DNA from: Verrucomicrobiia bacterium
GTDB taxonomy: Bacteria > Verrucomicrobiota > Verrucomicrobiia > Limisphaerales > UBA1319
Assembly: GCA_963664225.1 (NCBI GenBank)
Contig: OY760937.1
Coordinates: 352,001-416,000 of the forward strand
DNA: 64,000 nucleotides
Direction of reading: 5' to 3'
The translations under genes and the position numbers were made by a program. This document shows, piece by piece, positions 16,078 to 47,108 of this stretch. The stretch's first letter is position 1. Every line of letters begins with the position of its first letter. The notes under the pieces were generated by a model that did no database searches, had not been told where the DNA came from, and saw nothing but the letters and a program-made list of their open reading frames with translations.

Positions 16078-17646
16078 ATGAGCAAGAGATTTTATCTGAC
16101 CACGGCCATTGATTATGTGAATGGCCAACCGCATTTGGGGCACGCCTATGAGAAGATCATCACGGATGTGATGGCGCGGGCCCAGCGAAGTGCGGGCGCC
16201 GAGGTGTTCTTTCTGACGGGCGCGGACGAGCACGGCCAAAAGGTGCAGCAGGCGGCGCACGCGGAAGGCAGGGCGGCGCAGGAGTATTGCGACGGGTTGG
16301 CGGCAACGTGGCAGGCCTTTGTCGCCCGGCTCGATGTGACCAACGACGATTACGTGCGCACCACCCAGCCGCGACACAAGGAAGTGGTTCAGGCAATTCT
16401 TTCCAAGCTTTACGCGGAGGGCCAGTTCTACAAGGCACCTTACCGGGGCTTTTATTCCACCAAGGAAGAGACCTTCCTGACGGAAAAGGACCGCCGCCCG
16501 GACGGCAACTTCGATCCTTCCTACGGCGAGGTGGTGGAGCTGGTGGAGGAGAATTATTATTTCAAGCTCAAGGACCATCAGCAGTGGTTGATCGATTATA
16601 TCGAGAGCCATCCGGACTTCATTTTTCCCGAGAACCGCAAAAACGAAGTGCTCGGTTTTCTGAAGAACAACACGCTGGAGGATTTGTGCATCAGCCGTCC
16701 GTCCTCGCGGTTGAGCTGGGGTATCCCGCTGCCGTTCGATCCGACCTACGTGACGTATGTCTGGTTCGACGCGTTAAGCAATTACGTCACGCTTCCGGCG
16801 GCATTGGGCGATCCGCTCCTTTGCAAGGCGCTCGGATGCGGGGCCGGAAAACCGGTGGGGCCGGAGCTCTGGCCTGCCGACAAACAGGTCATCGGCAAGG
16901 ACATTGTGAAGTTTCACGCCGTTTATTGGCCGATCATGCTCAAGGCCATGGGCGTGCCCCTGCCCAAACAGCTCGTGGTTCACGGCTGGTGGCAGAAGGA
17001 CGGCCAGAAGATGAGCAAGAGCACCGGCAACGTGGTCGATCCGCTCGCCGTGGTCAATGAGTGGGGCGTGGACGCTTTTCGTTATTACGTCGTGCGCGAA
17101 CTGGCCATTGGACCGGACGGCAACTGGACCGATGCGGGATTCTCCGCGCGCTATCATGCCGAGTTGGCCAATGGGCTTGGCAACCTGTTGAATCGTTCGC
17201 TCTCCATGCTCAACCGCTACCGCAAGGGCGTGGTGCCGCAGCCTTCCTCAGAGCTGGCGAAGGACGCCGAAAAAGCGGCTGCGGAATCGTGGGCCGCGAT
17301 CGAGAAAAACGAATTGCAGGACGCGCTGGTGAGCATTTGGGGGCTCGTCAACCGGGCCAACCAATATGTAGATCAGACCGCGCCATTCAAGATGGCCAAG
17401 GACCCGGCCCAGAGCGCGCGCCTGGACGAGGTGCTTTACAATCTGGCGGAATCCTGCCGCATTCTGGCTGTATTGCTGTGGCCGTTCATTCCCGGCACCT
17501 CGGCCAGGATTTACGCCCAGCTGAATCTCAAGACCACGCCGGATAAGCGCTCAGAGGCCCAATGGGGCGGACTGGTCGCTGGCCATGTCATCGGCGCGCC
17601 GGAGGCCTTGTTTCCGCGCAGAGACCAGCCCGCCGCAGGGAAATAA
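16078..17646 (+). CDS. metG: Methionine--tRNA ligase (short form)
   Basis: YVNGQPHLGH (HIGH), KMSKS, YVWFDAL; start taken at MSKRFY. Confidence 0.95.
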   Translation: MSKRFYLTTAIDYVNGQPHLGHAYEKIITDVMARAQRSAGAEVFFLTGADEHGQKVQQAAHAEGRAAQEYCDGLAATWQAFVARLDVTNDDYVRTTQPRHKEVVQAILSKLYAEGQFYKAPYRGFYSTKEETFLTEKDRRPDGNFDPSYGEVVELVEENYYFKLKDHQQWLIDYIESHPDFIFPENRKNEVLGFLKNNTLEDLCISRPSSRLSWGIPLPFDPTYVTYVWFDALSNYVTLPAALGDPLLCKALGCGAGKPVGPELWPADKQVIGKDIVKFHAVYWPIMLKAMGVPLPKQLVVHGWWQKDGQKMSKSTGNVVDPLAVVNEWGVDAFRYYVVRELAIGPDGNWTDAGFSARYHAELANGLGNLLNRSLSMLNRYRKGVVPQPSSELAKDAEKAAAESWAAIEKNELQDALVSIWGLVNRANQYVDQTAPFKMAKDPAQSARLDEVLYNLAESCRILAVLLWPFIPGTSARIYAQLNLKTTPDKRSEAQWGGLVAGHVIGAPEALFPRRDQPAAGK

Positions 17647-19279
17647 ACAGGCCCCCGGGACCGGTTTGAATGGAAAAAGCGAATGGATTGCAAAATCGGC
17701 TTGCGAAATGCCGTGGGCATGGTTGAATGTGGTCCTTGGTTGCGCTTATGGTGGAATTGGCAGACACGCTACTTTGAGGTGGTAGTGGGGTAACCCGTGC
17801 AGGTTCAAGTCCTGCTAAGCGCACCACTCCACCACTCAACGATTTTTCGACGAGTGTTGACCACGGTTTGACGCAATAACCACGGGCTTTTTTGCAGTCG
17901 AGGACCAGGTTCGAGCCGAAGACTTTCAAGGCGAGATCCCTCTTCTCTTGAAGAGAACCCGAAACAGCGATTTGACCCGCGTTTTTAGCGGTTATTATCC
18001 AATTTTGGAACGGTTCGAGCCAATCGACGCGTCCTGCCGCCTGAGCGACCTTTTGCTCTTCCAAAGTCTTCTTTTGGCTCATCAATTTGGCCTTTTCTGC
18101 TGTGAATGTCTCCCGGTCGATGAGTTCATCCAAAAAAGTGTCGAGCAGCTTCTGGAGGCGAAGATTGAGCTTTTGGATTTCGGCTCTTTTTTGCTCCGCC
18201 AATTGCGCCGCCGATTGGGTGGACTCGCTTTTCTCCTTCTTGACCAGTTCAAGCATCGTATCCGCCCAGTCGGCAGGCATGGCAAATGGCGTCAGGAGCG
18301 CCGAAATCTCGGCGTTAAGGGCTTCTTCGCGAATGTAAGGCTGTTCGCACCATGAATTTAGGCGGCCTTTCTTGGTGCAGCGATAATAGGTGTGGCCTTT
18401 CTGAATTTCAGCGGTGATGGTGCCTCCACAGGTGGCGCAGTGCAGAAGGCCCATAAACGGCTTTGAGACGGTTTTCTTCTCCAGGGGTGAGAATCGCCAC
18501 CTGCGTTTGAAAATCGCATCGACCTTGTCAAAGAGGGCTTTGGATATGATCGGCTGGTGTGTGCCTTCATAAACATCGCCCTTGTAGCGGAAATGACCGT
18601 AATAGAAGGAATTCGAGAGCAATGACGATACGTATGTGCGGATGAGGGTGTGTCCGGTACGAGAAAAAACGCCACGCTCCGCGAAAAACGTTCGAATCGT
18701 GTCGATTGTGGCGTTTCCTGTGGCGTAAAGCTCAAATGCCTCTTTGATAATCGGGGCTCGCTCCTTGTCGATGATGATTTTCTTGGTGCGATAATCGTTC
18801 AGATAGCCGATGGGGGCACGACCAGGAAACTCACCGCGCCTGAGTTTTTCGCGAAGTCCGCGCTTGGTGTTCTCCGCAAGCGAGTCCACGTAGTATTTGC
18901 TCTGGCCGAACATGATGTTGAGCATGAATTTGCCCTGCGGGTCAGATTCAAAACGGAAGGTTGGAAATCGGAGAGTTTTAATTTTGCCGGTGTCGAGGAG
19001 ATATATTATTTGCCCGCCATCGATGCTGTTGCGGGCCAGACGGTCGGGATGCCAGGAGAGAATTCCATCGGCTTCACCTGCCTCGATACGGGAGATCATA
19101 TCATTGAAAATCACCCTTCCTGGTGATTTTGCCGACTGCTTCTCGATCATCTCGGCAACAACTCTTATGTGCTCGCGTTGCGCGAATTCGCGCAATTCAG
19201 CGAGTTGGGCTTCGATGGAGAGAACCTGCTTGTCCTCGGCATCGGTGGATTTTCTCGCATAGAGGAAAAGGTTATTCAT
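17588..19279 (-). CDS. Large serine recombinase (integrase); att site inside its 3' end
   Basis: YARKS catalytic Ser, DRLARN, CATCG...YYRC zinc ribbon, coiled coil; after V486 the frame reads through antisense tRNA (RLAGLEPAR). Confidence 0.95.
   Translation of the reverse strand: MNNLFLYARKSTDAEDKQVLSIEAQLAELREFAQREHIRVVAEMIEKQSAKSPGRVIFNDMISRIEAGEADGILSWHPDRLARNSIDGGQIIYLLDTGKIKTLRFPTFRFESDPQGKFMLNIMFGQSKYYVDSLAENTKRGLREKLRRGEFPGRAPIGYLNDYRTKKIIIDKERAPIIKEAFELYATGNATIDTIRTFFAERGVFSRTGHTLIRTYVSSLLSNSFYYGHFRYKGDVYEGTHQPIISKALFDKVDAIFKRRWRFSPLEKKTVSKPFMGLLHCATCGGTITAEIQKGHTYYRCTKKGRLNSWCEQPYIREEALNAEISALLTPFAMPADWADTMLELVKKEKSESTQSAAQLAEQKRAEIQKLNLRLQKLLDTFLDELIDRETFTAEKAKLMSQKKTLEEQKVAQAAGRVDWLEPFQNWIITAKNAGQIAVSGSLQEKRDLALKVFGSNLVLDCKKARGYCVKPWSTLVEKSLSGGVVRLAGLEPARVTPLPPQSSVSANSTISATKDHIQPCPRHFASRFCNPFAFSIQTGPGGLFISLRRAGLCAETRPPARR
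17742..17826 (+). tRNA. tRNA-Leu (anticodon GAG), integration target
   Basis: GCGCTTA/TAAGCGC acceptor stem, CTACT-TTGAGGT-GGTAG anticodon arm, long variable arm, GGTTCAAGTCC T arm, encoded CCA. Confidence 0.97.
17821..17905. repeat. attL arm; 85-bp inverted repeat of 19618-19702
   Basis: Reverse complement matches 19618-19702 by eye. Confidence 0.95.
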
Positions 19280-19300
19280 GGCATCTGAATATTAGCGCAA

Positions 19301-19323
19301 TATGCTTGCTCGTGCAAGCATAT
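19301..19323. promoter_or_regulatory. Perfect inverted repeat just upstream of the integrase start (operator or hairpin)
   Basis: ATATGCTTGC-tcgt-GCAAGCATAT. Confidence 0.55.
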
Positions 19324-19351
19324 CAATAATTGAAACGACTCGACGACTGTA

Positions 19352-19513
19352 TCATCCCCGATCCCAGCGGGCGCGGGCCGCCAACTTGGCTATTCGTGAG
19401 CGCGCCTTCGCTGACAACTTTGCAGCGCGCGCTTGCCCTCCTTTGGAGGCACCAAGTTTCGAGAGCGCAACCGCTGCCGGGTTTTTCTTCTTTGATTGTG
19501 ATTCTCCAGACAT
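19352..19513 (-). CDS. 53-aa basic protein (histone H1-like/KGG-type, not in ORF track)
   Basis: Hand translation MSGESQSKKKNPAAVALSKLGASKGGQARAAKLSAKARSRIAKLAARARWDRG*. Confidence 0.75.
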   Translation of the reverse strand: MSGESQSKKKNPAAVALSKLGASKGGQARAAKLSAKARSRIAKLAARARWDRG

Positions 19514-19617
19514 GATTATGAAGTAGTATAAATGTTGTTGCGAGTAAACGCTAGTGGCGCAACAAATCGTTTCGGATTCTATCGGTTCTTAAACCGTGGT
19601 CAAATCGCAACTCGTCT

Positions 19618-20110
19618 GTCCTCGACTGCAAAAAAGCCCGTGGTTATTGCGTCAAACCGTGGTCAACACTCGTCGAAAAATCGTTGAGTGGTGGAGTGGT
19701 GCCTCTGTATAACGCCGCTCGAACTTTCTTTCGAGGGCAAACATCGTCGTGAACGTGCAATCCAACTTTTTGCCTCGCGTTTGAGGCAGACTCTTTTGGA
19801 CAATGTTCGAAGATCTTTTCACAAAAATCTGCACCGTTGATTGAGTGGAGACTACGAGATTCGAACCCCGTTGTCTCTTTGAAAAAGGGTATCCTCGAAC
19901 CTATCCCCGCACCTGTCCCCACGGCGGGGATACCCTGCGAATCAACGGCATCCTGTGTTTACCGTCGTTTTGTCGTGGTTTGTCCGCTTGACGGCATCCC
20001 CGACTTCGGTCGGTTTTATGGCTCGCACGGCTGCTGTTTGTGTGGAAGCCGTGCTCGCCAAAAACCTCCCTCATCGCTCACGCGAAAACGAGTTCACCGG
20101 CGGACGGGTT
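19618..20110 (-). repeat. Internal inverted copy of the complete attP junction (493 bp)
   Basis: Equals the reverse complement of 49420-49835 joined to 17829-17905 across the GCACCACT core. Confidence 0.93.
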
Positions 20111-20166
20111 AATTTTCTTGGAAAATCCTCTTTTTTAAAGTCGCCATGAGGCGATCCCCGCATTTG

Positions 20167-21360
20167 TTATTGGACTTCGAGCTTGGTAACGAGATTATTA
20201 ACGCTTACGCCGCCTGCGGCACCGTTTTTAGCACTGAGCCCCAGGAGCATTTCCAACTGCAACCGACAGGAACCAGAGGCCGGAGATTTCTGATCATTTG
20301 ATACGAATTTGATTGTGGCCGTGATGGAATCATTGGGTTTGATTTCTGTGGCTGGGGAAAATGTGTTTGGCTGATACCCGTAACTTGAAAAGAATGCGAG
20401 GCTGATTCCTGAAACACTTGTTCGGTTGCCACTAAATTCAGAACCAGTCGAATCGGTGATTCGTCCATTTATGGTGCCCATGAGTTCAGTGCCTACGGCC
20501 ACCCAAATCGACTTCGCTTTGTTTTGATTTGTTAATGACATCGTAAGCAAGTATTGCGTATCATTTACGATACGAAGGGGCTGCAGGTCGATGCGGAGGT
20601 CTCCGAAGGTTTTGCTGGCAGAAGGCTTCTCATCACTGGCTGCTCCGGCTGCGGGTTCAGTAGCGGGGTGAGACATGAGTTGCTGCACATTCGTGTCTGT
20701 CATAAATTCAGCCCTGGCGGCTCCCACGATCTCGGCGGTTTCAGTGGTGATTACCTTTGCTGTAAGGCTGGTCTTTTGGCCTTTCGGTATGATCGTTCCG
20801 ATCACCAGTGCGTCCACACCGGCAAATTTTCCAAGCTGTTTGGCGTTTTCCGGGTCCACAAGACCCAGTGATGTTAGCTTGTGCTCAGCCAGGATTCTTC
20901 TGAGATTTGCCCGGTCGAGCACTGAGAAATCCCGTTTGCCCATCACAAAGTTTACCGTCAATTGCTCAGCGATATATTTTCCGAGTTCACCGCTTGGCGA
21001 GCCTTGAAGATCTGTAAAATCGACCACTGCCACTTTTTTCATGGCCTTGTCTTTAATTGGGGCCGCGAGCTTTTCGGTCAGGTCGGAAAGCTCTTTGTCC
21101 ATATCCTGGGTTTGGGCGAGCGCATGGCCGCACAAAACGATGCACAGAAAGGCTGTCAGGGAGCGTTGCAGATTCATAACTTGGATTCTTGGTTGAATGA
21201 TCCTACTGGATCGACATTTTGGTGTCCTTTGAGATTTGTTTGATGAGGCGTTCTTCGGCCATTGAACGCGCCTCCACCTGTTTAAAACCGGAGCCATTTG
21301 CAGTGAATGTCCATGTTCCGCCTTGGACGCTTCTGGCGATTGGCAATACTTGCACCTCAA
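20167..21360 (-). CDS. CsgG/FlgO-like secreted protein; probable start ~21178 (MNLQR)
   Basis: Signal peptide, VAVVDF, DRANLRRILAE, AKQLGKFAGVDALVIG. Confidence 0.7.
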   Translation of the reverse strand: MRCKYCQSPEASKAEHGHSLQMAPVLNRWRRVQWPKNASSNKSQRTPKCRSSRIIQPRIQVMNLQRSLTAFLCIVLCGHALAQTQDMDKELSDLTEKLAAPIKDKAMKKVAVVDFTDLQGSPSGELGKYIAEQLTVNFVMGKRDFSVLDRANLRRILAEHKLTSLGLVDPENAKQLGKFAGVDALVIGTIIPKGQKTSLTAKVITTETAEIVGAARAEFMTDTNVQQLMSHPATEPAAGAASDEKPSASKTFGDLRIDLQPLRIVNDTQYLLTMSLTNQNKAKSIWVAVGTELMGTINGRITDSTGSEFSGNRTSVSGISLAFFSSYGYQPNTFSPATEIKPNDSITATIKFVSNDQKSPASGSCRLQLEMLLGLSAKNGAAGGVSVNNLVTKLEVQ

Positions 21361-22168
21361 GCTGCATATTTGCGGTGACGAGATTTAGCAGAGAAGGGGT
21401 CGTTGAATACTGGACAGTCTGTTGAGAGAGTATGAGGGCGTCCAAGGAGTTGGCGACCTCCAGTTTGTTTAGAACATCGGTTGAACCGCCGAATACCGTG
21501 GCGAAAAGTTTGTCAGAAACGAATTCAGGTTTGAAAAATGAGGAGAGAAACTCGACGGAGTTGGTTTTGAAGTGCTGAGCCAGGGCGGTGCTTACGTTCT
21601 GGTTCAACTTTCCATCATCGGATACGACCACGATGGCCACTGATTTTGTTGAAGGCGTGCGATTAAAGCCGGTATTCAGATAGCGCGCCAAAAAACGTGC
21701 ATGTTTCGCCGCTTCTTCTTCGCGAAGTTTTGCTGCCGCCTCCTCATGGAGCTTCGTCACCCTGGCCTCTTCAGCGGCTCTCTCCGCAGCAATCTCGCTG
21801 GCCCTGTTAGGTCGCTGCTCCTGTGGCTGGGGAATCGATACTGCTTGAGCAGGCGTTGGGTTGGCGACCTTTGGTTGATATTGTATTTGCGGGGTAGGCT
21901 GGTAAACCCGCTGCGGTTCTGAATATCCGGCTCTAAAGAAAAAGCAATTGATGGTCAGCGCGATGATGACAAGGCCACCAATAAAATACTTCAGCTTTTG
22001 TTTGTTCGACTCCGTGCTCATACCGATCTGATTGTGCATTGGATTACACGGGCTTGCACTGGAGGATAAATCTGGCGAAAAGGGTTGACTATGGCAAGCC
22101 AACAATGGGGATAACAGGACATCCTGAAAATGTGGTATGATTTTTTGTTGTTCGTATTGTTCAGCCAC
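21203..22168 (-). CDS. Hypothetical membrane-anchored protein; probable start ~22022
   Basis: TM helix, PQ-rich linker, coiled coil, alpha/beta C-terminal domain. Confidence 0.6.
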   Translation of the reverse strand: MAEQYEQQKIIPHFQDVLLSPLLACHSQPFSPDLSSSASPCNPMHNQIGMSTESNKQKLKYFIGGLVIIALTINCFFFRAGYSEPQRVYQPTPQIQYQPKVANPTPAQAVSIPQPQEQRPNRASEIAAERAAEEARVTKLHEEAAAKLREEEAAKHARFLARYLNTGFNRTPSTKSVAIVVVSDDGKLNQNVSTALAQHFKTNSVEFLSSFFKPEFVSDKLFATVFGGSTDVLNKLEVANSLDALILSQQTVQYSTTPSLLNLVTANMQLEVQVLPIARSVQGGTWTFTANGSGFKQVEARSMAEERLIKQISKDTKMSIQ

Positions 22169-22268
22169 ACCTCTATTACCATGACGGCTCGCAGCAAACG
22201 TATGTCGTCATTTCGCACGCATGAAGGCCGCGCGGCGAGTTTCACTCGCGGAATGGAGGTATGCTTGG

Positions 22269-23531
22269 ATGGAACAAGACAACCTTGTATTTGTAGGGAA
22301 GCGACATGAGTGGGGTGATGACATCCCATTTGGAATTGATGTTGCCGCCCGACGCCAGCACGTCTATGTGATTGGACAGACCGGTTCGGGAAAATCCACC
22401 TTGCTTCGCAATTTGATCCTGCAAGACATCGAGGAAGGTCGCGGTGTGGGGGTAATTGATCCGCATGGTGATCTGGCGTCGGACATTTTGGAGCATATTC
22501 CACCGTGGCGGACTGGTGATGTTGTGTATTTCGATCCATCTGATGATCATCCACTTGCAATCAATCTATTTCGCGCCACAACCGATAATTGGCATCTCGT
22601 CACCTCGGGCATTGTGTCGGCATTCAAAAACATTTGGGGGAATTCCTGGGGGCCACGACTTGAATACGTGCTGTATGCGACGGTTGCGGCACTGGTGCAA
22701 TGCGACAATACAAGCCTTTTGGGAGTATCCCGGATGCTCTATGACGACAAATACCGATCCTGGGTCGTAAAGCAGGTCACAGACCCCATGGTGCGGTCAT
22801 TTTGGATAAATGAGTTTGCCAATTATGATCGCAGTTTTCGGAATGAAGTCGTGAGCCCCATTCAAAACAAGGTTGGGCAGATATTCCTTGCTCCCGCGCT
22901 TCGCAATGTCCTGGGGCAGGTCGGCATGAAAATCAATTTCCGCTTCATGATGGATCACAAGCGCATCTTTGTGGCCAATCTAAGCAAGGGCCTTATCGGC
23001 GAGGCACACAGCAGTCTCCTGGGATCACTTCTCGTTACGGGCTTCGAGTTGGCTGCGCTGTCGCGCGCCGACATTCCGGCCAATGAGCGCGAGGACTTCT
23101 TTTTGTATGCCGATGAGTTCCATCACTACGCGACCGATTCATTTGCGGGCATCCTTTCGGAAGCGCGCAAATACCGACTCTGTCTCACGCTCGCGCATCA
23201 ATATCTCGGACAGTTGACTGAGGAGATAAGCGATGCAGTGTTTGGCAACGTCGGCACGTTTCTCGCGTTTCGGGTGAGCGAAGCCGACGCATTAGTGCTC
23301 CAACGACAATTTGGCGACAATCTCAGTCCAGCGCATTTTACGGGCCTCGAAAATTTTGAATTATGTGCGCGACTGTTGAACAAAGAACCCTTCCTCGCGA
23401 CCTCGTTGCCGCCGTTGGAAACATCGAGGCGACGGCGGAAAATCATCATGCGAAATTCTCGCCAGAAATATTCCACGCGGAAAAAGGTGGTTGAAGAAAA
23501 GATTGAACGCTGGTTAAAAAGGAGGCATTGA
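22269..23531 (+). CDS. VirD4/TraD-like (HerA-FtsK superfamily) ATPase
   Basis: Walker A GQTGSGKS, IDPHGD, Walker B LYADEF, SEARKY..LAHQ. Confidence 0.88.
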   Translation: MEQDNLVFVGKRHEWGDDIPFGIDVAARRQHVYVIGQTGSGKSTLLRNLILQDIEEGRGVGVIDPHGDLASDILEHIPPWRTGDVVYFDPSDDHPLAINLFRATTDNWHLVTSGIVSAFKNIWGNSWGPRLEYVLYATVAALVQCDNTSLLGVSRMLYDDKYRSWVVKQVTDPMVRSFWINEFANYDRSFRNEVVSPIQNKVGQIFLAPALRNVLGQVGMKINFRFMMDHKRIFVANLSKGLIGEAHSSLLGSLLVTGFELAALSRADIPANEREDFFLYADEFHHYATDSFAGILSEARKYRLCLTLAHQYLGQLTEEISDAVFGNVGTFLAFRVSEADALVLQRQFGDNLSPAHFTGLENFELCARLLNKEPFLATSLPPLETSRRRRKIIMRNSRQKYSTRKKVVEEKIERWLKRRH

Positions 23532-24352
23532 TTTTGAGTATGATTATTGAATCAACAGACCCCTCCACGAGCCGGTCGCGGTTCATAACAAGGACATACG
23601 TGAATATGGCGGTTATCACTGCCATGTTTATCCTCGGTGTAATCGTGCTTTCGTTTTTGTCATCGGTGCTTTTTCCAGGTTCCTCTATGACCATGTTGAT
23701 CTTCGATGGCATCGCCCTGGCGTGCGCGTATTATTTCTATATTCTATGGGAAAAACGCCCAATTCGCTTGGTGTGTCGAAACTGCAATAAAATCATTTTG
23801 AGCAATACGCCGTGGTTTTGTGCCGCGTGCAATCGGCCAAACACGAATACGACCGAATTTCCCTTTGTTCATAAATGCGAGCATTGTGGCGCGGAGCCGA
23901 AGGCTTATCGGTGTCATAATCCGGAATGCAAAGAGATAATTTATTTGTCGGAGGACGAGGACAAGACAAATTACGCCCACCGCTTGAACTCGCCGGATGA
24001 AAATTCAGAGCAGGATAAACGCACCCAGCAATTAAAGACGAAGCTGCAAATGAAAGAGGACAGGGAACATGAGATTTTGATGGCGCAATCCGATGTCACT
24101 TTGATAGAGCTCAAGCAACGGCACAAGTTTATCAAAGGTCTGATCAAATCCTCAAAGAAAAAGCCACCGATTGAATCGAAAAGAGAAAATCTGAAGGAAT
24201 TCTTCGGCACTTCCATAGCGGCTGAACAGGCAGCGCGCGAACAAAAGGCGGCTAACGCCATTGAATGCAAGGGCGATGCAGCGGAGCGCAGGCGGAGAGA
24301 TCGCGTCGTGGATTCCTGGCTGGAGCGCGAAAAGGCAGGAGACAATGAATAA
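23528..24352 (+). CDS. Hypothetical membrane protein with Cys-rich zinc ribbons and coiled coil
   Basis: 2 TM, CRNC/CAAC/CEHC/CHNPEC; overlaps the ATPase stop. Confidence 0.7.
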   Translation: MILSMIIESTDPSTSRSRFITRTYVNMAVITAMFILGVIVLSFLSSVLFPGSSMTMLIFDGIALACAYYFYILWEKRPIRLVCRNCNKIILSNTPWFCAACNRPNTNTTEFPFVHKCEHCGAEPKAYRCHNPECKEIIYLSEDEDKTNYAHRLNSPDENSEQDKRTQQLKTKLQMKEDREHEILMAQSDVTLIELKQRHKFIKGLIKSSKKKPPIESKRENLKEFFGTSIAAEQAAREQKAANAIECKGDAAERRRRDRVVDSWLEREKAGDNE

Positions 24353-24376
24353 CCCCGTTCCTGTGAACGGGGTTAT
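24349..24376. terminator. 12-bp perfect stem-loop, probable terminator
   Basis: ATAACCCCGTTC-ctgt-GAACGGGGTTAT. Confidence 0.7.
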
Positions 24377-24905
24377 CTCTAATGCGACGGTTCATAACGA
24401 GTCGCAATGAGACGTGGATCGCACGTCTTTGGCTGAACAGCCAGGCGGGCAACCTCTTCATACATGCGTAAGTGTTCTTGAAGATCGCGATGCATGATGT
24501 AACGGAATGATGCGCCGTAGGCTTTCGGCATATTGCGTATTTGTCCTTCGATGGTGTCGAGCAGAGCTTGAACATCGAGTTCTTCAGTCTGAGCATTCAT
24601 CTGATCCTGAGTTTGGAATGGATAACCGTTATCCTGTTCCTGTCTGAGGTGTGGAAAAATGCGGTCATGAATCTCTCGGTTGATACGCAGTTTGAAAATC
24701 TTCCAGCGCATCCGTGAAAAGAACGATTCCTTGGTATTTCTGTGCATAAACCATTGGTGGTCAATGTTTGTTGACAGTTGAAGAAACCAACCACGTCGTA
24801 TGGCGGGCTTCACACGACTGTCAAACGGAGGAGGGATGCCAGGGAAAAGTCTGCTACGTATTATATCACAAAAGTCGAGTTGGTACAAGGGGCGCGGGGC
24901 TCGCA

Positions 24906-24934
24906 TTGACGATTAAAACAAGCCTTGCTTTAAT
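24906..24934 (+). promoter_or_regulatory. Sigma70-like promoter for the 24980-26308 operon
   Basis: TTGACG-17 nt-TTTAAT; AAGGAG RBS before 24980. Confidence 0.55.
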
Positions 24935-24979
24935 GATAGGCGGAACATTCGTTCCTTAACTTCAACATAAAGGAGATCG

Positions 24980-25279
24980 ATGAACACGCCATCTGCTCGT
25001 TCTGACGAGCCGCAGCCAAAATTCCTTGTCGGCCGAATCGTGGCAACGCCAAATGCGATCAATCAAATTCCCAGTGATGAGATTATGAATGCGCTGGCAC
25101 GCCACATTCAGGGCGATTGGGGAGCGTTGGATACGGACGATTGGGACTCAAACGAATGCGCCCTTAAAAACGGCGGACGTTTGTTTTCTCAGTATCGCTC
25201 GACACAAGACATCAAGTTTTGGATAACAACGGAAGCCGACAGGTCGGTGACGACCGTTCTTTTACCGGAGGACTATTGA
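24980..25279 (+). CDS. Small plasmid/ICE-associated hypothetical protein (paralog 1 of 3)
   Basis: GRIVATP...RH..GDWG...RLFS.Y...WITTEADRSVTTVLLPEDY. Confidence 0.8.
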   Translation: MNTPSARSDEPQPKFLVGRIVATPNAINQIPSDEIMNALARHIQGDWGALDTDDWDSNECALKNGGRLFSQYRSTQDIKFWITTEADRSVTTVLLPEDY

Positions 25280-26308
25280 ATGAACAAATCATGGATAGAC
25301 TTCAAGGCGCTTCGTGCGGAATTGGATTTCGCGGAAGTGCTCCACCACTACGGTGTGGAGGTTAAAGGCAACGGCAAACAACATCATGGTTTTTGTCCGC
25401 TGCCGAATCACAATGGAAATCGCAATTCGCCTTCGTTTTCGGCGAATCTTGAACGAGGGATATTCCAGTGTTTCGGCTGCGGTGCAAAAGGCAATGTTCT
25501 TGAATTCGCCGCTTTCATGGAAAAATCCGATCCCCAGGATGGTGCGGCTTTGCGCGAAGTTGCTCTCAAACTCCAACAACGCTTTTGTCCGGAACTTGGA
25601 GACCAGCCAAAGGAAATTAAAAAGCCCATTCAACAGCGGTTGGAGCCCATCAAACCGGAGAGTGAACTGCCGGTTCTCGTCAACGTCCCGCTCGATTTTG
25701 AGCTCAAGGACTTGGATCAAACCCACCCATACGCCTTTGATCGAGGGTTTACAAAGGACACCATTGCCCATTTCGGGCTCGGCTTTTGTTCACGCGGAAT
25801 GCTCAAAGGTCGTCTGGCGATTCCGCTTCATGACGATCAGGGGAGATTGATAGGGTATGCGGGCCGCCTCGTCGATGACACCAACGTGAGTGAAGAGAAT
25901 CCTCGTTACCGGTTTCCGGGCAAGCGAGAAAGAGACGGCAAGGTCTTCGAATTTCGAAAGACTGCATTTCTTTACAACGGCTATCGGATCAAAGCTCCGG
26001 TGGATGATCTCATCGTTGTCGAAGGGTTCACCTCGGTGTGGTGGTTGCATCAAAACGGCCAGCCTCGAGTGGTTGCTACCATGGGTGCCGACTGCTCGGA
26101 AAAACAGGCGGAACTTATCGTTTCCTTCGTGAAGCCAAAGGGACGTGTCTGGATTGTTCCCGATGGGGATATCGCAGGGGAGCGACTGGTGCATTCGCTC
26201 CTATTTCAGGTTTCGCCACACCGTCTGGTACGGTGGATGAAACTTGCCAACGACATTCAGCCGACGGATTTGTCCGCTGAACAATTAAAAACATGCTTCA
26301 TCTTGTGA
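25280..26308 (+). CDS. DnaG-like primase (CHC2 zinc finger + TOPRIM)
   Basis: CPLPNH...CFGC, IGYAGR, VVEGF, DGDIAG. Confidence 0.85.
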   Translation: MNKSWIDFKALRAELDFAEVLHHYGVEVKGNGKQHHGFCPLPNHNGNRNSPSFSANLERGIFQCFGCGAKGNVLEFAAFMEKSDPQDGAALREVALKLQQRFCPELGDQPKEIKKPIQQRLEPIKPESELPVLVNVPLDFELKDLDQTHPYAFDRGFTKDTIAHFGLGFCSRGMLKGRLAIPLHDDQGRLIGYAGRLVDDTNVSEENPRYRFPGKRERDGKVFEFRKTAFLYNGYRIKAPVDDLIVVEGFTSVWWLHQNGQPRVVATMGADCSEKQAELIVSFVKPKGRVWIVPDGDIAGERLVHSLLFQVSPHRLVRWMKLANDIQPTDLSAEQLKTCFIL

Positions 26309-26313
26309 AGCGC

Positions 26314-26338
26314 AGCGATCCGTGAGGGTCGCTTTTTT
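26314..26338 (+). terminator. Terminator between primase and XRE gene
   Basis: AGCGATCC-gtga-GGGTCGCT then a T-run. Confidence 0.65.
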
Positions 26339-26558
26339 AAACGTCGCGAACCAGGTCGCGGACGTGAACTTTTAGAGCTGTTGCAATGCGTGTAAGCGCA
26401 TCCACTGATATCGTCTTTTCCATGCGCTCCACTTCACCGATGTATTTCGGGTTTAAATCCGCCAGTTCTCCAAGCCGTTCCTGGGTCAGGTTCGCCTTCT
26501 TGCGGTAATGGCGAATGGCTTGACCAAGTGCTTTTCGGTTTTCTGGATGTGTAACCAC
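26337..26558 (-). CDS. XRE-family HTH regulator (C-protein-like)
   Basis: LTQERLGELADLNPKYIGEVER HTH. Confidence 0.88.
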   Translation of the reverse strand: MVTHPENRKALGQAIRHYRKKANLTQERLGELADLNPKYIGEVERMEKTISVDALTRIATALKVHVRDLVRDV

Positions 26559-26595
26559 AGGCCGTCAGCCTAGCCGACAGGCGCTCCCTCATTAC

Positions 26596-26611
26596 ACCAG
26601 CTATAGCTGGT
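26596..26611. promoter_or_regulatory. 16-bp perfect palindrome, putative XRE operator
   Basis: ACCAGCTATAGCTGGT between divergent genes. Confidence 0.6.
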
Positions 26612-26657
26612 ATTATTTTCTTGCAATCTTCCCGCTTTTGCCTGATTATTCAGCCAT

Positions 26658-26915
26658 ATGAACAACCCTATCGAATTCCTTCGCAGAATCGGCCCAGACC
26701 CTCATGCAAACGGCAGGCAGACGGTTGCGCTCAATAATTGCCCGGACATTTTTGAACTCAAATCCGGGGATTTCGCCATCATCGGCATCGACATTACAGA
26801 TACCGCCAAACCGAAATTGCCGCCGACGGCGGGCTGCGGCCCCGATGAACGGATTGTCTTTATCCCGCGAAATCTGCTCGTCGAAGCCAGGTCTGACATT
26901 CCCAAAACGGTTTAG
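26658..26915 (+). CDS. Small hypothetical protein (CPDIFEL motif)
   Basis: 85-aa ORF divergent from XRE, globular composition. Confidence 0.7.
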   Translation: MNNPIEFLRRIGPDPHANGRQTVALNNCPDIFELKSGDFAIIGIDITDTAKPKLPPTAGCGPDERIVFIPRNLLVEARSDIPKTV

Positions 26916-26956
26916 GGGATTTGGTGTAATCCCGCCTGCTCCGGTATAATGGGCGG

Positions 26957-27409
26957 ATGGGAGCATTTCAATGGCTTGGAGAGCATTGGTTCGACTGCGT
27001 TCAAATCGTTGGCGTGGTCGGTGGTTTGCTGCTGACCGCATATACGATTCACAAGGATGCGCGGGCGCGACAAATCAGCAACCTGATCGCGTTGAATGAT
27101 CGGCACGATGAAATATGGAGCACGTTTTACGAGCGTCCTCAATTGGCGCGTGTTCTCAAGAGCACCGTCGATTTGAAAAAGCAGCCTGTGTCCGATGAGG
27201 AGCACCTGTTTGTGAAAATGCTTTTCATCCACCTGGATACCATTCGGCGGACAACCAAAGCGGGAATGTTCATCAAGATTGTGGAAATCCAGAATGACAT
27301 TCACGGCTTCATAAAACTTCCCATACCCAAAGCGGTTTGGGAAAAACTCAAACCCTTTCAGGATGAGGATTTCATTTCATTTGTGGAAGATTGTCAGAAT
27401 CTCCGGTAA
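26957..27409 (+). CDS. Hypothetical protein with N-terminal TM and helical domain (DUF6082/DUF4760-like)
   Basis: TM followed by an all-alpha domain; family from recollection only. Confidence 0.6.
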   Translation: MGAFQWLGEHWFDCVQIVGVVGGLLLTAYTIHKDARARQISNLIALNDRHDEIWSTFYERPQLARVLKSTVDLKKQPVSDEEHLFVKMLFIHLDTIRRTTKAGMFIKIVEIQNDIHGFIKLPIPKAVWEKLKPFQDEDFISFVEDCQNLR

Positions 27410-28388
27410 CTACCTTGCCTTCGAGGAGACATCTCTTTTTGATTTTCGATTCGATGAATGACTCGCGCTCCGGCTGGTGTCGGTATTCAAACCGGCGCCT
27501 GGGCCGTTCGTTGTAAAATGGGGTGCCAATCGTCAGGTTGCGGTAATCCATCGGCAGAATCCAGATCGCGCCAAGAGGGTCGGCGATTACATCTGCAAGG
27601 GTTGTGAGCCACGTTCGGCTCAATATGGGCGGGTCGTTCTGCGCCAGCCGTTCCGCTGTGTTATTCCGACGCTCGGCGGATTTGAGAACCATGAGAACAC
27701 GAAAGGGGAATTCCTTGAAATCAGTTCGCGGAACACCATTGCGAACAGCAAACCCGCCGGATTTGTAATATTCCCGGTAACAGTCAGCCTTGGCGACGAG
27801 GACATCCTGAGTTTCGCTTGAACGATCCACTTCAAGAAAACAGTCGTAGGCATAACCTTTTGTACCGGGTTCCTTTTCGTGGATACGGAGGAAACCGTCC
27901 GGCTTTACCAAAATATTGGTGCCGTCGCCAGGACGGGATGCCTCGAATTGGTATAACAGCGGCCATGTGCTGAATTCAAGGATCGAAAAAGTTTCAGATT
28001 TAACGAGTGCGGCATGGAACGCCGCTTTTACATCCATGATCTCAAGTTCATGGCGCAGAGTGACTTCGCTCACATTTGCGCGTGCTTCGAAAGAGCTTTT
28101 TCCAAGTGACGGGTATTCTGCAAGATGACCTTGGTCGGTGAGCAGGGTAAAGGCCTTACGGGTTAAAAAGAGAACGGATGACTCATTTGCATTTCGTTTT
28201 CGTTCGCCAATATATCCGGCGGCTTTGAGTTTTTGGAGGCGCTTTTTGGTATATTCGCGTTTGCTCTCGAAATACAGGGTTGCAATGTGCGCGCCGGTCA
28301 TTACGCGGGATTCAAAAAGGCCACGGAGGAGGGCGATGTCGCGGTCTTGAAGTTGTATGGGTTCAACGTGTGTTTTCAAGGTGGCCAT
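27372..28388 (-). CDS. Replication-relaxation (Replic_Relax) family protein
   Basis: LQDRDIALL winged helix, LRHELEI, VKPDGF, FLEVDRSSE..K..Y PD-(D/E)xK-like motifs. Confidence 0.85.
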   Translation of the reverse strand: MATLKTHVEPIQLQDRDIALLRGLFESRVMTGAHIATLYFESKREYTKKRLQKLKAAGYIGERKRNANESSVLFLTRKAFTLLTDQGHLAEYPSLGKSSFEARANVSEVTLRHELEIMDVKAAFHAALVKSETFSILEFSTWPLLYQFEASRPGDGTNILVKPDGFLRIHEKEPGTKGYAYDCFLEVDRSSETQDVLVAKADCYREYYKSGGFAVRNGVPRTDFKEFPFRVLMVLKSAERRNNTAERLAQNDPPILSRTWLTTLADVIADPLGAIWILPMDYRNLTIGTPFYNERPRRRFEYRHQPERESFIESKIKKRCLLEGKVVTGDSDNLPQMK

Positions 28389-28874
28389 GTGTGAATATTT
28401 TTAATTGATACGCCTTCTTTGATAACTTCATCGACGATGGTTTTAAATCCACAATTCAAGCGGAAAACAAATATATGTTAGTGAAATAGACGCGTATAGT
28501 CAATCGGTTTGGATTGCGAATCAAATGCGGTTATGGGGGGGTGTGGATTGTGCAATGTGTTTGTGAACGTCCATTCAAGTCCCTCGGCTTTTTATATGCA
28601 ACATAGTGCGTCATCGCACCAAAGTGCGTGCGGTTAAAAATGAGCTCGGTTGCGGCGATTGCTTTGACGTTTAAAAACTCATTTTGTCCCATTCTTGGAC
28701 AAAATGCGTGTTAGCACACTCTTTGATAATAAAAGAATAAAATAAATCATAATTGTTTTGACACAGGAAAGGGTGCTGATATTATGTCTCCTAATAAATG
28801 TTAGGGCAGGAAAGTCGGTCCTGCGGTGTTTCTTCCTGCCGGTTCGGGTTAATTGTCCGTCAATATTCTATCCT

Positions 28875-31811: not shown

Positions 31812-31845
31812 TATATTCAAGAATCAAACAAATAAGAGGAAGCCA

Positions 31846-37881: not shown

Positions 37882-38405
37882 AGACAAACGGTTATCTTAT
37901 TGTATTAGATACGGTCACATATAACAAAGGAACACTAAATATATTGTATCGAGGGGTAGATCGTTTGCCACAATATCCTAGCAATATACTTAGTGAACGT
38001 GAGGCGAATGAATTTTATGTATTTTCCGGTGTGCGTCTCGATTCTGGACTTATAGAAACATTGAATCAAGCCACCGATCTCTTAAAAATGTTTGAGAAAT
38101 CGCCACGTAAGTATGAAATACTCTTTTGCTCTTTTGACGATGATCAAAAACAATATGAACAAGAAGGACATTTGTTGTTTCTTGGGGTAGATGTAGCATC
38201 AATATCAGGAGACTGCTGGTCGATAGTGAAAGATTACCCTTGTCATCAAGAAATGAAAAAATATTTACCACTATTAAATGAAAATGGTTTATTTTCTAAT
38301 TGCATAGTAGCACGGAAATATTTGATGGATTACCGATCCCAAAAACTTAATGATTATGATTTTCCATTCGAGGTAATCGCTGTCTATCGATTCAATGTAA
38401 AATAA
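37878..38405 (+). CDS. Putative immunity protein
   Basis: ATGA overlap with the RHS stop, AT-rich like the toxin tip. Confidence 0.7.
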   Translation: MKTNGYLIVLDTVTYNKGTLNILYRGVDRLPQYPSNILSEREANEFYVFSGVRLDSGLIETLNQATDLLKMFEKSPRKYEILFCSFDDDQKQYEQEGHLLFLGVDVASISGDCWSIVKDYPCHQEMKKYLPLLNENGLFSNCIVARKYLMDYRSQKLNDYDFPFEVIAVYRFNVK

Positions 38406-38459
38406 GCGATAAAACCCTAAACAAATATGTAAATAATAAGATAATCGACTATTATATAT

Positions 38460-38888
38460 ATGAATGTTAAATACTGGATTCAAGTTGGAATGTCATTGAT
38501 GTGTATGTCATTGTGTCTGCGAGCACAAAGCGTAACGAACAATAATGCGTTTACTGGTTATAAGCCCAATATCGAAGGAAAGATGAGTGATCCTGAACGA
38601 AAGGCGCTTTTAGAAAGCCGAAAACAAGAGTTGCTTAAATGGGATAAGAACGGTGATGGCAAAATTGATGCGGGCGAACGTGAAGCATGGAAACGTGCCC
38701 GCCAGGAATATTACCTGAAGATCAAGAAACAAAAGCAAATCGAAAATCCTAACAACGAGGCTGCGCGTTTGCTTAAAAAGCATGATGTGAATCATGACGG
38801 ACATCTCGACCAAACAGAGAAATTAGCATTGGAAGCTGATTTGGCTGAAGTACAAGCTCGTAAACAGTCAAAAAATGCTGGAAAATAG
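38460..38888 (+). CDS. Secreted EF-hand protein
   Basis: Signal peptide; DKNGDGKIDAGE and DVNHDGHLDQTE. Confidence 0.8.
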   Translation: MNVKYWIQVGMSLMCMSLCLRAQSVTNNNAFTGYKPNIEGKMSDPERKALLESRKQELLKWDKNGDGKIDAGEREAWKRARQEYYLKIKKQKQIENPNNEAARLLKKHDVNHDGHLDQTEKLALEADLAEVQARKQSKNAGK

Positions 38889-39078
38889 AGAGTCTCGGTC
38901 TGGATTCATGCAGGCATTCTTCAGGACAAGTGGCTATTGTAGTCGATCGAGTTGACATCTAACAGCCTTTACATTGCTCGGTTTCGACATTGATAATGGG
39001 GGAGTTCATAAATTATCATGTCAAGTGCTGGATGGCTTCAAAAGACTCATGACGCGCAGCGGAGTATATCATTTGCAA

Positions 39079-40881: not shown

Positions 40882-40937
40882 AAACTGTATAGTGAAGGCG
40901 TGATAATATCAAAACAGGAACAAAGCATGTTTGGAAT

Positions 40938-42258: not shown

Positions 42259-42331
42259 ATAAGCTCAGCGATCTATTAATGCATATTAAATCAAAAATAG
42301 TTTAACAAGTTCTATAAAGTGATTATCTACT

Positions 42332-43912: not shown

Positions 43913-43941
43913 TTAAAGAAAAGAATGTATTTACCTTTGAT

Positions 43942-44736: not shown

Positions 44737-44817
44737 GTTCTGAAAAATCGATCAAATTATATCACGCCGCCTGTAGGTTAAAAAAGGACCCCTCCCGAAA
44801 AATGGAAGGGGCTTGAA

Positions 44818-45755: not shown

Positions 45756-45760
45756 CGTAT

Positions 45761-46551: not shown

Positions 46552-46556
46552 GATAA

Positions 46557-47073: not shown

Positions 47074-47108
47074 TTGAAAAACGGGCAACCGTTTAAAAGT
47101 TTTTAACG

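What the first reader, a model, noticed from the sequence alone, without database searches (positions are those of the whole stretch)
17821..20110. Integrated element carries a second, intact, inverted attP: possible two-attP integrase switch
Seen: 19618-20110 is the reverse complement of the circular junction (attR arm 49420-49835, GCACCACT core, attL arm 17829-17905). The island therefore holds attL, attR and a complete attP. The att site lies inside the integrase gene, so the current integrated state cuts off its native tail PLYNAARTFFRGQTSS* (502-aa form), and that tail is present in frame in the spare copy. Inference: (i) the excised circle would have two inverted attP sites, and integrating through the spare one leaves the integrase gene intact while integrating through the intragenic one alters it; (ii) flipping 17906-19617 between the 85-bp inverted repeats restores the full-length gene without excision; (iii) the spare attP could recombine with another tRNA-Leu attB. 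I do not know of a described element with this layout.
Basis: partly seen in the sequence, partly recalled or inferred. Interest (0 to 1): 0.9.

Follow-up and report, generated by a model that had tools for sequence, protein, structure and literature searches.

The report
Serine-integrase island with spare inverted attP
A 32-kb mobile island sitting at the end of a tRNA-Leu gene keeps a second, back-to-front, intact copy of its own docking site beside its integrase gene, a layout shared by hundreds of related elements and apparently undescribed, which may let the integrase gene lose and regain its conserved tail.

Summary
19618-20110 is a perfect inverted copy of the joined island ends (85 nt shared with attL, 416 nt with attR, overlapping in the 8-bp core). 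Contigs of two independent isolate-like runs carry every junction and show double depth on both repeats. The island (17829-49835, low G+C, relaxase, coupling ATPases, primase, ArdC, RHS) sits at the CCA end of tRNA-Leu(GAG), inserted by a large serine recombinase whose gene crosses the attachment site.

The layout is a family hallmark. 105 of 158 related loci (Verrucomicrobia, many Patescibacteria) have the same repeat around the integrase gene, and 18 small elements show both repeat pairs. The 16-residue tail cut off by integration (LYxxARTxF) is conserved family-wide. 112 loci have the truncated orientation and 4 contigs the opposite one. Two close relatives differ by an inverted cargo, and the arms evolve in concert.

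My best reading is that integration truncates the integrase, and recombination between the repeats can rejoin it to the spare tail. This is inferred, not shown. I found no published description, though earlier notes of this scan report the family on other DNA.

The parts
17742..17826 (+). tRNA-Leu(GAG), the integration target. The crossover lies in its CACCA 3' end.
   Evidence: ARAGORN; Rfam RF00005, 51.7 bits
17821..17828 (+). attL core GCACCACT, shared by attL, attR and the spare attP
   Evidence: overlap of I1 and I2; sequence read
17829..17905 (+). P' arm of attL. Together with the core it forms the left arm of the 85-nt inverted repeat. It encodes (minus strand) the last 26 residues of the integrase before the core, a region that AF2 models as disordered in a relative.
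17588..19279 (-). Large serine recombinase gene. It is 563 aa as integrated; residues 1-486 are native, and the last 77 are read from the tRNA antisense strand and beyond.
   Evidence: Pfam Resolvase 7e-22, Recombinase 1.9e-13, Zn_ribbon_recom 1.4e-9
17906..19617 (.). Integrase segment 'S' (integrase, 53-aa ORF, promoter-like site), bracketed by the 85-nt inverted repeats
19352..19513 (-). 53-aa basic ORF upstream of the integrase gene. It is conserved at this position in 15 Verrucomicrobia-type relatives and has no family hit. It is a candidate regulator or directionality factor (inference).
   Evidence: tblastn in script; no Pfam or NCBIfam hit
19576..19603 (-). Promoter-like site TTGACC-16-TAGAAT inside S, 15 nt from the spare attP, facing the small ORF and the integrase gene
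   Evidence: consensus scan, 10 of 12 positions; not evidence of function
19618..20110 (-). Spare, intact, inverted attP. P' arm 19618-19694, core 19695-19702, P arm 19703-20110.
19702..19752 (+). Native integrase tail PLYNAARTFFRGQTSS plus stop, in frame with the repeat copy of the integrase 3' end
19769..19790 (+). Terminator-like hairpin just after the native stop codon
   Evidence: consensus scan only
20111..49419 (.). Cargo: CsgG/FlgO-like protein, HerA/FtsK-like ATPase, primase, Replic_Relax relaxase, 1017-aa and 2011-aa (RHS) proteins, TraG/VirD4-like ATPase, methyltransferase, HD protein, CoiA-like nuclease, ArdC. G+C is 0.38-0.51 against 0.56-0.60 outside.
49420..49835 (+). attR: P arm 49420-49827 and core 49828-49835. 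It is followed by chromosomal B' from 49836.
   Evidence: loose ends at 19695 and 20110 read into B' and into 49390-49419

Best explanation
SHOWN. 17829-49835 is an integrative, probably mobilizable island. A large serine recombinase (LSR) inserted it at the CCA end of tRNA-Leu(GAG). The attachment site lies inside the 3' end of the recombinase gene. Integration therefore replaces a family-conserved 16-residue tail (LYxxARTxF) and its terminator with tRNA-antisense sequence. An intact inverted attP sits just upstream of the gene, so the integrase segment S and the cargo are each bracketed by inverted repeats. This layout is the hallmark of a large family, from 2-kb elements in Patescibacteria to this 32-kb island. 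Within the family the arms evolve in concert, the relative orientation of cargo and S differs between close relatives, and both tRNA-proximal orientations of S occur, at 112 loci against 4.

INFERRED. Integration through the intragenic site disables or attenuates the integrase and locks the island in. This is the common state, and it is the state seen here. Recombination between the 85-nt arms would flip S. I think this is most likely host homologous recombination, because the arms are far longer than an LSR half-site and are homogenised. Flipping would rejoin the gene to the spare tail and terminator and put it downstream of the tRNA promoter. The resulting full-length enzyme would drive excision or further rearrangement. 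That makes the flipped state short-lived and the truncated state the sink.
For: The repeats and junctions are real. The LSR domain set is present, and AF2 of a full-length relative gives the catalytic domain, recombinase domain, zinc ribbon and a long coiled coil.

Family conservation is strong. 105 of 158 loci have the flanking repeat, and 45 of 55 loci with enough context do; 26 of those 45 are 100% identical and 37 are at least 98%. 18 loci hold both repeat pairs. In the genome of L006 the spare's P arm (289 nt, 98%) is inverted relative to a site 23 kb away.

The tail LYxxARTxF sits at a fixed distance from the core in dozens of loci. It shows synonymous variation: Leu with 6 codons, Thr with 4, Tyr and Phe with 2 each, Arg as CGA, AGA or CGC.

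Concerted evolution is visible. The arms of L009 and L011 differ from each other at 11 of 159 positions, yet each element's own two arms are 100% identical.

Isomers exist. In L009 versus L011, cargo plus P arms match on the minus strand (96.7% over 1743 nt), while the integrase segment matches on the plus strand (91.8% over 1991 nt).

Orientation counts: 112 of 158 loci have the tRNA directly after the integrase 3' end. Four (L067, L073, L081, L105) have tRNA-core-P' directly upstream of the gene.

The arms are 45-190 nt long, median 114. An LSR half-site is about 25 bp (recalled). One contig of run X20 joins 17906 to 19618 on opposite strands, that is, the integrase 3' end to the tail. This is a weak hint only.
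Against: There is no direct evidence of inversion, excision or a circular form in this strain. k=31 contigs cannot phase an 85-nt repeat, and the X20 joint could be a k-mer chimera.

All 4 opposite-orientation contigs end inside the second repeat copy, so wrong resolution of the repeat by the assembler cannot be excluded. The rest of those elements was not found in their bins.

The tail codons also form the most conserved DNA block of the P half-site (GCTCGAAC). Part of the tail's conservation may therefore be a DNA-binding constraint rather than a protein constraint.

AF2 models the last ~50 residues as disordered (pLDDT 25-45), so structure gives no clue to what the tail does.

10 of 55 loci with enough context were scored without the repeat. 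One of them, L063, does have it, and L061 has a truncated integrase gene. Canonical LSRs do not recombine attL with attP (recalled).
Confidence: 0.45

Rival explanations
1. There are two equivalent docking sites and no switch. The spare is simply a second functional attP, so the circle can integrate through either site. The strong bias towards the truncated orientation arises because insertions that keep a full-length, tRNA-promoter-driven integrase are costly and are lost.
For: The two sites are identical over 493 nt, so the enzyme cannot tell them apart. Both orientations are found. Cargo and S isomers exist.
Against: This gives no reason for the spare to be kept in elements as small as 2.1 kb (L015). 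It does not explain why the arms extend 45-190 nt, well beyond a half-site. Concerted evolution still requires homologous exchange between the arms.
Confidence: 0.2
2. The integrase itself inverts S or the cargo between the inverted sites. This would resemble Flp on the 2-micron plasmid or Gin on the Mu G segment, and could serve copy-number amplification of the excised circle or phase variation.
For: The recombinase gene lies inside a segment bracketed by inverted copies of its own site. Isomers exist. The island carries a primase and a Replic_Relax protein.
Against: Small elements have no replication genes. Crossover at the core cannot homogenise the arms, yet they are homogenised. Known LSRs do not recombine attP x attP or attL x attP (recalled). 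The 112 to 4 orientation bias argues against free flipping.
Confidence: 0.12
3. The spare copy is regulatory or structural and is not a recombination substrate. It could be an integrase-binding decoy or operator, a terminator or insulator between cargo and the integrase gene, or the source of an RNA complementary to the integrase 3' end.
For: It lies directly upstream of the promoter-like site. The P arm carries hairpins and folds better than shuffled sequence (z = -3.8).
Against: The core lies 77-185 nt from the promoter region, too far for simple occlusion. A regulator site need not copy the whole attP, the tail and the terminator exactly. The opposite-orientation loci and the isomers show that the copies do recombine.
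Confidence: 0.1
4. The spare is a neutral relic: one ancestral inverted duplication kept uniform by gene conversion, with no function.
For: Gene conversion alone can keep nearby inverted repeats identical. Decaying examples exist (arms at 74-95% in 4 of 45 loci; L162 arms at 80% with a frameshifted integrase gene).
Against: The spare is retained across phyla, at 40-70% integrase identity, and in minimal elements under strong size pressure. Decay coincides with broken integrase genes, which suggests the spare is maintained while the element is active.
Confidence: 0.08
5. The spare is an assembly artefact, for example a circular form folded into the chromosome assembly.
For: Both repeat pairs are 100% identical. 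The circular junction would have the same sequence as the spare.
Against: Both novel junctions (19617|19618 and 20110|20111) are present in contigs of two runs, with unique flanks, and the repeats have double depth. The genome is a single closed contig. The same layout, with slightly diverged arms, occurs in over 100 independent assemblies.
Confidence: 0.01

Closest known systems
Large serine integrases of phages and integrative elements (phiC31, Bxb1, Listeria A118/LI, SPbeta SprA; names recalled)
   Same: The domain set is the same: resolvase catalytic domain, recombinase domain, zinc ribbon with a long coiled coil. Sequence identity between the recombining sites is short (8 bp here, 5 bp in L009). 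An attP lying directly next to the integrase gene is also typical.
   Different: The targets here are the CCA ends of many different tRNA genes. One attP lies inside the integrase coding sequence, and a second, inverted attP lies upstream of it. No known directionality factor is present. Best NCBIfam hits (XisF, CcrB, CcrA) score far below their cut-offs.
Dehalococcoides ssrA-specific genomic islands with serine integrase DsiB (PMC3146451; passages read)
   Same: A serine-family integrase gene lies next to attL, overlaps attP/attL and reads into a tRNA-like (tmRNA) gene. The authors themselves suggest the gene may be fully functional only on the circular form. The islands are mobilizable and do not transfer themselves.
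   Different: The word 'inverted' does not occur in that paper's main text, and no spare attP is described. The insertion point is in the T-loop of ssrA with a 20-bp direct repeat. There is a companion small recombinase, DsiA. I did not test homology to DsiB.
SSV1-type archaeal integrases whose attP lies within the integrase gene (recalled; PMC8371274 seen only in a search listing)
   Same: Integration into a tRNA gene splits or alters the integrase gene.
   Different: These are tyrosine recombinases. The gene is split into two large parts. No spare inverted site restores it.
Invertible segments of serine invertases (Salmonella Hin; Mu Gin G segment, which swaps the C-terminal ends of tail-fibre genes) and the 2-micron plasmid Flp/FRT inverted repeats (all recalled)
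   Same: The recombinase gene lies inside or beside a segment bracketed by inverted copies of its site. Inversion would swap the 3' end of a gene. A circle is divided into two segments by inverted repeats, giving isomers.
   Different: The enzyme here is a large serine integrase. The sites are attL and attP of a mobile element. The orientation is strongly biased (112 to 4). No enhancer or Fis system is known here.
Integration-dependent immunity of mycobacteriophages such as BPs and Brujita (recalled)
   Same: attP lies inside a gene, so integration changes that protein's C-terminus and thereby its activity or stability.
   Different: These use tyrosine integrases. The altered gene is the repressor, and integration removes a degradation tag. 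There is no inverted spare site.

Membership tests
Large serine recombinase (serine integrase) | N-terminal resolvase-type catalytic domain with the nucleophilic serine | tested here: met
   PF00239 at 7e-22, residues 5-150. Y7, R9, S11, D79, R80 and R83 are invariant in alignments A1 and A4.
Large serine recombinase (serine integrase) | Recombinase domain plus zinc-ribbon domain carrying a coiled-coil insertion | tested here: met
   PF07508 at 1.9e-13 and PF13408 at 1.4e-9. The AF2 model of full-length relative L098 has helices 333-380 and 386-415 after the zinc ribbon (mean pLDDT 74.9, pTM 0.33).
Large serine recombinase (serine integrase) | Short attP and attB that share only a few bases around a 2-bp crossover | tested here: inconclusive
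   The common core is 8 bp here and 5 bp in L009. The crossover dinucleotide cannot be located from sequence alone.
Large serine recombinase (serine integrase) | Excision controlled by a separate directionality factor | not testable with these tools
   The conserved 53-aa ORF is only a candidate. The small elements carry no shared accessory gene.
Integrative and mobilizable element | Integrase plus relaxase or oriT, without a complete conjugation apparatus | tested here: inconclusive
   Replic_Relax at 8.9e-21, two TraG/VirD4/HerA-like ATPases, a primase and ArdC are present, and no other type IV secretion family was found among the 24 ORFs scanned. Only ORFs of 110 aa or more were scanned, and no oriT was sought.
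Serine DNA-invertase switch (Hin/Gin type) | Small serine recombinase with a C-terminal helix-turn-helix acting on ~26-bp inverted sites with an enhancer | tested here: not met
   The enzyme is a 502/563-aa LSR. The inverted sites are attL and attP of an island. 112 of 158 loci are in one orientation.
Double-attP tRNA-CCA serine-integrase elements (family seen in this scan, unnamed) | Integrase 3' end abuts the 3' end of a tRNA gene, with the core in CACCA | tested here: met
   112 of 158 relatives show the same
Double-attP tRNA-CCA serine-integrase elements (family seen in this scan, unnamed) | Inverted copy of core plus P' arm upstream of the integrase gene, continuing into a copy of the attR arm | tested here: met
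   for the window; for relatives
Double-attP tRNA-CCA serine-integrase elements (family seen in this scan, unnamed) | Conserved tail [LF][YF]xx[AIVT]RTxF encoded just beyond the core on the P arm | tested here: met
   PLYNAARTFF in the window; the same motif at the same spacing in relatives

The most novel reading that the evidence does not exclude
The integrase gene is its own switch. Integration through the intragenic attP removes a short conserved C-terminal motif that the enzyme needs, or that sets its direction. An inverted spare site lets repair-type recombination, for example after DNA damage, flip the gene back onto its tail and behind the tRNA promoter, triggering excision. This would be a directionality and induction mechanism for serine integrases that needs no separate directionality factor or repressor. 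It would be used by a very large, undescribed family that moves defence genes among Patescibacteria and larger islands in Verrucomicrobia.
Probability: 0.2. Interest if true: 0.9.

Novelty: new variant of a known kind. Interest (0 to 1): 0.75.

Why it matters
Serine integrases are valued tools because they are simple and one-directional. How natural elements control direction is known for only a few phages. Here a widespread family has three unusual properties:

- It targets the universal CCA end of tRNA genes. A 2014 database paper stated that serine-family integrases were not known to do this (PMC4383910, passage read).
- It places the site inside its own gene.
- It always keeps an inverted spare site.

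If the spare works as proposed, it is a new way to couple integrase activity to integration state. It would also give a compact natural design: the integrase gene plus two sites, about 2 kb in L015. The small elements carry restriction-modification and other defence-like genes, so the family is probably a main route of gene exchange in ultra-small bacteria. In practical terms, these repeats break short-read assemblies right beside the integrase gene. Many contigs end there, which hides the elements from island-finding software.

Tried and rejected
Reads. Only Logan contigs were available for the runs that hold the locus. They cannot phase the 85-nt repeat or tell a circular junction from the spare copy. 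No empty-site junction was among the loose ends shown, and 51 loose ends were not shown. Runs X20 and X21 are of unknown kind and fragmentary. The X20 joint 17906->19618 is kept only as a hint.

Empty site. The same-genus genome G004 has the tRNA-Leu gene, but its downstream flank is not syntenic with 49836 onwards. No empty attB could be shown.

Extending the opposite-orientation contigs. The bins holding L073 and L081 contain no contig with the rest of the repeat.

Phage link. A scan of viral contigs found no relative (0 of 6 stretches).

Structure. AF2 of a full-length relative gives no position for the tail (pLDDT below 50 for residues 453-504). No fold search was run.

RNA. Rfam finds only the tRNA in 17400-20500.

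Full-length integrase genes without an adjacent tRNA. L098, L128 and L160 are too short to classify. L061 is N-terminally truncated and composite. L162 is frameshifted with 80% arms. L145 could not be classified.

A second attB for reading (iii). None was found in this genome.

Literature. Five full-text searches and passages of three papers gave no description of the layout. Supplements were not read.
Full report
OBSERVATION

The repeat finder on the whole window reports two perfect inverted pairs. One is 19695-20110 versus 49420-49835 (416 nt). The other is 17821-17905 versus 19618-19702 (85 nt). They overlap in 19695-19702, the reverse complement of GCACCACT.

tRNA-Leu(GAG) occupies 17742-17826 (Rfam). 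The common core therefore lies on the CACCA end of the tRNA.

A 563-aa ORF runs on the minus strand from 19279 to 17588. It carries the three Pfam domains of a large serine recombinase. It reads through the 85-nt arm, the core, the tRNA antisense strand and beyond. On the plus strand of the spare copy the same frame continues ...GGVV-PLYNAARTFFRGQTSS-stop, with the stop at 19750-19752. That gives a 502-aa protein.

The stretch between the outer cores has 0.38-0.51 G+C, against 0.56-0.60 outside. It encodes a Replic_Relax relaxase, two TraG/VirD4/HerA-like ATPases, a primase, ArdC, a CoiA-like nuclease and an RHS protein. I read it as an integrative, probably mobilizable island.

NOT AN ARTEFACT

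The genome is one 5.78-Mb contig, and the repeat sequences occur only at the three expected places.

Two runs from different samples and studies hold 98% of the sampled words of 17300-20600. Their k=31 contigs break at the repeat edges. The 85-nt and 416-nt pieces show about twice the depth of the unique flanks. The contigs cross each junction by 30 nt, including the two junctions that exist only if the spare is really inserted between 19617 and 20111. These contigs cannot tell which way the 1.7-kb segment lies.

A FAMILY HALLMARK

A scan of one genome per species found 127 relatives of the integrase among 169 candidate stretches, and 79 loci were kept. They come from Verrucomicrobia and, in greater number, from Patescibacteria.

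Self-BLAST of all 158 loci gave these results:
- 105 loci have an inverted repeat with one arm on the integrase 3' end and the other upstream of the gene.
- Of the 55 loci with at least 700 nt upstream, at least 200 nt downstream and a near-complete gene, 45 were scored as having the repeat. One of the ten misses, L063, does have it.
- Arm length is 45-190 nt, median 114.
- 26 of the 45 are 100% identical, 37 are at least 98%, and 4 are below 95%.
- Eighteen loci contain the whole element and show both repeat pairs abutting at a short core. Cargo ranges from 153 nt (L015, about 2.1 kb in all) to 4.2 kb.

For a 25-kb relative, the P arm of the spare (289 nt, 98%) is inverted relative to a site 23 kb away in the same contig.

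The targets are the 3' ends of many different tRNA genes.

The cargo of the small elements is mostly defence-like: type IIG and ThaI restriction-modification, a WYL regulator with DUF1706, NYN, an SDH protease, and a radical-SAM protein with thymidylate kinase. It includes no replication or transfer genes.

In this genome the integrase has one copy. None of 9 same-family genomes has a match at E <= 1e-30, so the island was probably acquired recently.

WHAT INTEGRATION DOES TO THE GENE

I translated each spare copy outward from the repeat. In the window and in dozens of loci this gives the same motif at the same distance from the core: [LF][YF]xx[AIVT]RT[FYH]F, followed by 2-7 residues and a stop. 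Examples are ELYNSARTFFERN, RFYAHARTYFSTKSQI and PLYLAARTYFLSQT.

The codons vary synonymously: six Leu codons, four Thr, both Tyr and both Phe, and Arg as CGA, AGA or CGC. This argues for selection on the peptide.

In the integrated genes the same position reads tRNA-antisense sequence (..G[ILF]EP..) of arbitrary length.

One caveat applies. These codons are also the most conserved DNA block of the attP (GCTCGAAC). Its complement, GTTCGAGC, resembles the tRNA T-loop and lies about 4 nt further from the core than the T-loop does in the tRNA. Part of the conservation may therefore be a DNA-binding constraint.

AF2 of a contiguous full-length relative (L098, 504 aa) gives a standard LSR body. 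Residues 453-504 are disordered in the model. That region is the part encoded by the repeat, plus the tail. So the P' arm encodes a variable linker, and the tail looks like a short terminal motif.

DO THE COPIES RECOMBINE?

Three comparative results say yes.

(a) Concerted evolution. The 159-nt arms of L009 and L011 differ from each other at 11 positions, and those of L009 and L012 at 2. Each element's own two arms are 100% identical. Crossover at the core cannot homogenise the arms. Homologous exchange can.

(b) Isomers. L009 sits in tRNA-Leu(TAG) and L011 in tRNA-Val(CAC). Between them, cargo plus P arms align on the minus strand (96.7% over 1743 nt), while the integrase segment aligns on the plus strand (91.8% over 1991 nt).

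(c) Both tRNA-proximal orientations exist. 112 of 158 loci have the tRNA directly after the integrase 3' end, which is the truncated state seen in the window. In four loci (L067, L073, L081, L105) the tRNA, the core and the reverse-complemented integrase C-terminal coding arm lie directly upstream of the gene. This is the product expected from integration through the spare site or from flipping S.

All four of those contigs end inside the second repeat copy, and the continuation was not found in their bins. Wrong resolution of the repeat by the assembler cannot be excluded. A fifth candidate (L145) is unclear. Five loci have a gene ending in the native tail with no tRNA nearby, but they are too short or degenerate to classify. 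The remaining 36 loci are cut by contig ends or broken.

MECHANISM

Any explanation must give the spare a role, because it is kept even in 2-kb elements.

The two attP copies are identical, so a circle should integrate through either. The arms evidently exchange, so the opposite orientation must arise regularly. Yet it is rare (4 against 112). The orientation with the full-length gene therefore seems short-lived, and the truncated one seems to be the sink.

I conclude, as inference, three things. Loss of the tail disables or attenuates the enzyme and stabilises the insertion. The spare provides the way back. Flipping S across the 85-nt arms rejoins the gene to its tail and to the terminator-like hairpin at 19769-19790, and places it downstream of the tRNA gene.

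I favour host homologous recombination for the flip, for three reasons. The arms are several times longer than an LSR half-site. They are homogenised. Known LSRs do not recombine attL with attP (recalled).

A promoter-like site inside S (19603-19576) and a conserved 53-aa basic ORF complete the module. Whether the ORF acts as a directionality factor is unknown. I put this reading at about 0.45. The rivals are listed separately.

COMPARISON WITH WHAT IS KNOWN

The enzyme is a member of the large serine recombinases (domains and fold tested). The element works like an LSR-driven integrative element.

The nearest published case I could read is the Dehalococcoides ssrA island. Its serine integrase gene, dsiB, overlaps attP/attL and reads into the tmRNA gene. 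Its authors wondered whether the gene is complete only on the circle (PMC3146451, passages). That paper's main text does not contain the word 'inverted'.

The Islander paper of 2014 states that serine-family integrases were not known to target tRNA genes (PMC4383910, passage). The tycheposon preprint mentions that 27 of 937 elements carry a large serine recombinase, without describing such a layout.

Five full-text searches gave no description of a duplicated inverted attP. Supplements were not read.

Analogies recalled from memory are the SSV1-type split integrase genes, Hin/Gin invertible segments, the 2-micron plasmid, and integration-dependent immunity of mycobacteriophages. Each shares one feature but none shares the combination.

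EARLIER NOTES OF THIS SCAN

Look-ups show that other agents met the same family on other DNA: 25 notes in at least 23 genomes. They too found no description. One noted the one-sided orientation. I re-derived these points independently here. I add the Verrucomicrobia island, the read-depth check, the tail analysis, the isomer pair and the four opposite-orientation contigs.

VERDICT

The feature is real. It is a new architectural variant of serine-integrase elements and a hallmark of a very large undescribed family. The switch function is plausible and testable but not shown.

Noticed in passing
window 49655-49700 (and its inverted copy 19830-19880): Inside the P arm lies a tRNA-3'-end-like fragment (..GGGGTTCGAATCTCGTAGTCTCCA) followed by CTCAATCAACGG, which resembles the start of the P' arm. 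It may be a fossil attL of an earlier related element, and it could explain why this P arm (416 nt) is longer than in relatives (142-296 nt). The arm folds better than shuffled sequence (z = -3.8).
   Followed up: no
P half-site, window 19717-19724 and relatives: The most conserved DNA block of attP is GCTCGAAC (complement GTTCGAGC). It coincides with the A-R-T codons of the tail and resembles the tRNA T-loop GTTCRA. It lies 18 nt from CACCA, against 14 nt in a tRNA. This may be how one family recognises many tRNAs, with the outward shift between attP and attB half-sites reported for LSRs (recalled).
   Followed up: partly
window 19590-19616 and 19652-19674 (also 17849-17871): A 13-nt motif, AAACCGTGGTCAA, followed by ACTCGTC, occurs just inside S and again inside the P' arm. 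On the minus strand it contains the TTGACC of the promoter-like site, so each P' arm carries a second -35-like box.
   Followed up: no
L015:5325-7455: A minimal member of the family. The cargo between attR and the spare attP is only 153 nt, so the whole element (small ORF, integrase, two attP) is about 2.1 kb and sits in tRNA-Thr(CGT).
   Followed up: partly
L036:5574-11162: The integrase match stops at residue 306. The second repeat arm lies 5.1 kb away, next to tRNA-Gly(CCC), and a further 48-nt arm-like copy lies next to tRNA-Leu(GAG). This looks like an insertion into the integrase gene, or tandem elements.
   Followed up: no
window 50132-51286 and 50500-55820: Just outside attR there are genes with BspA-type leucine-rich repeats (PF13306 at 2.5e-65) and 69-nt-period repeat families D1 and D2 at 50.5-51.1 kb and 54.7-55.8 kb.
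   Followed up: no
window 28758-37881: The island cargo includes a 1017-aa ORF with no family hit, followed by a 2011-aa RHS-repeat protein and two small ORFs. This is a polymorphic-toxin-like module.
   Followed up: no
window 45727-45813 and 46523-46610: Two direct repeats of 55 nt and 30 nt (83-84% identical), 796 nt apart, lie in the intergenic region next to the ArdC-like gene. Their meaning is unknown.
   Followed up: no
window 17826 (run X19): One contig of X19 follows the tRNA 3' half to CCA and then continues into unrelated sequence (ACCTAATTCTC...). This could be a second tRNA with the same 3' half, or a variant site in that sample. It is not the empty attB.
   Followed up: no
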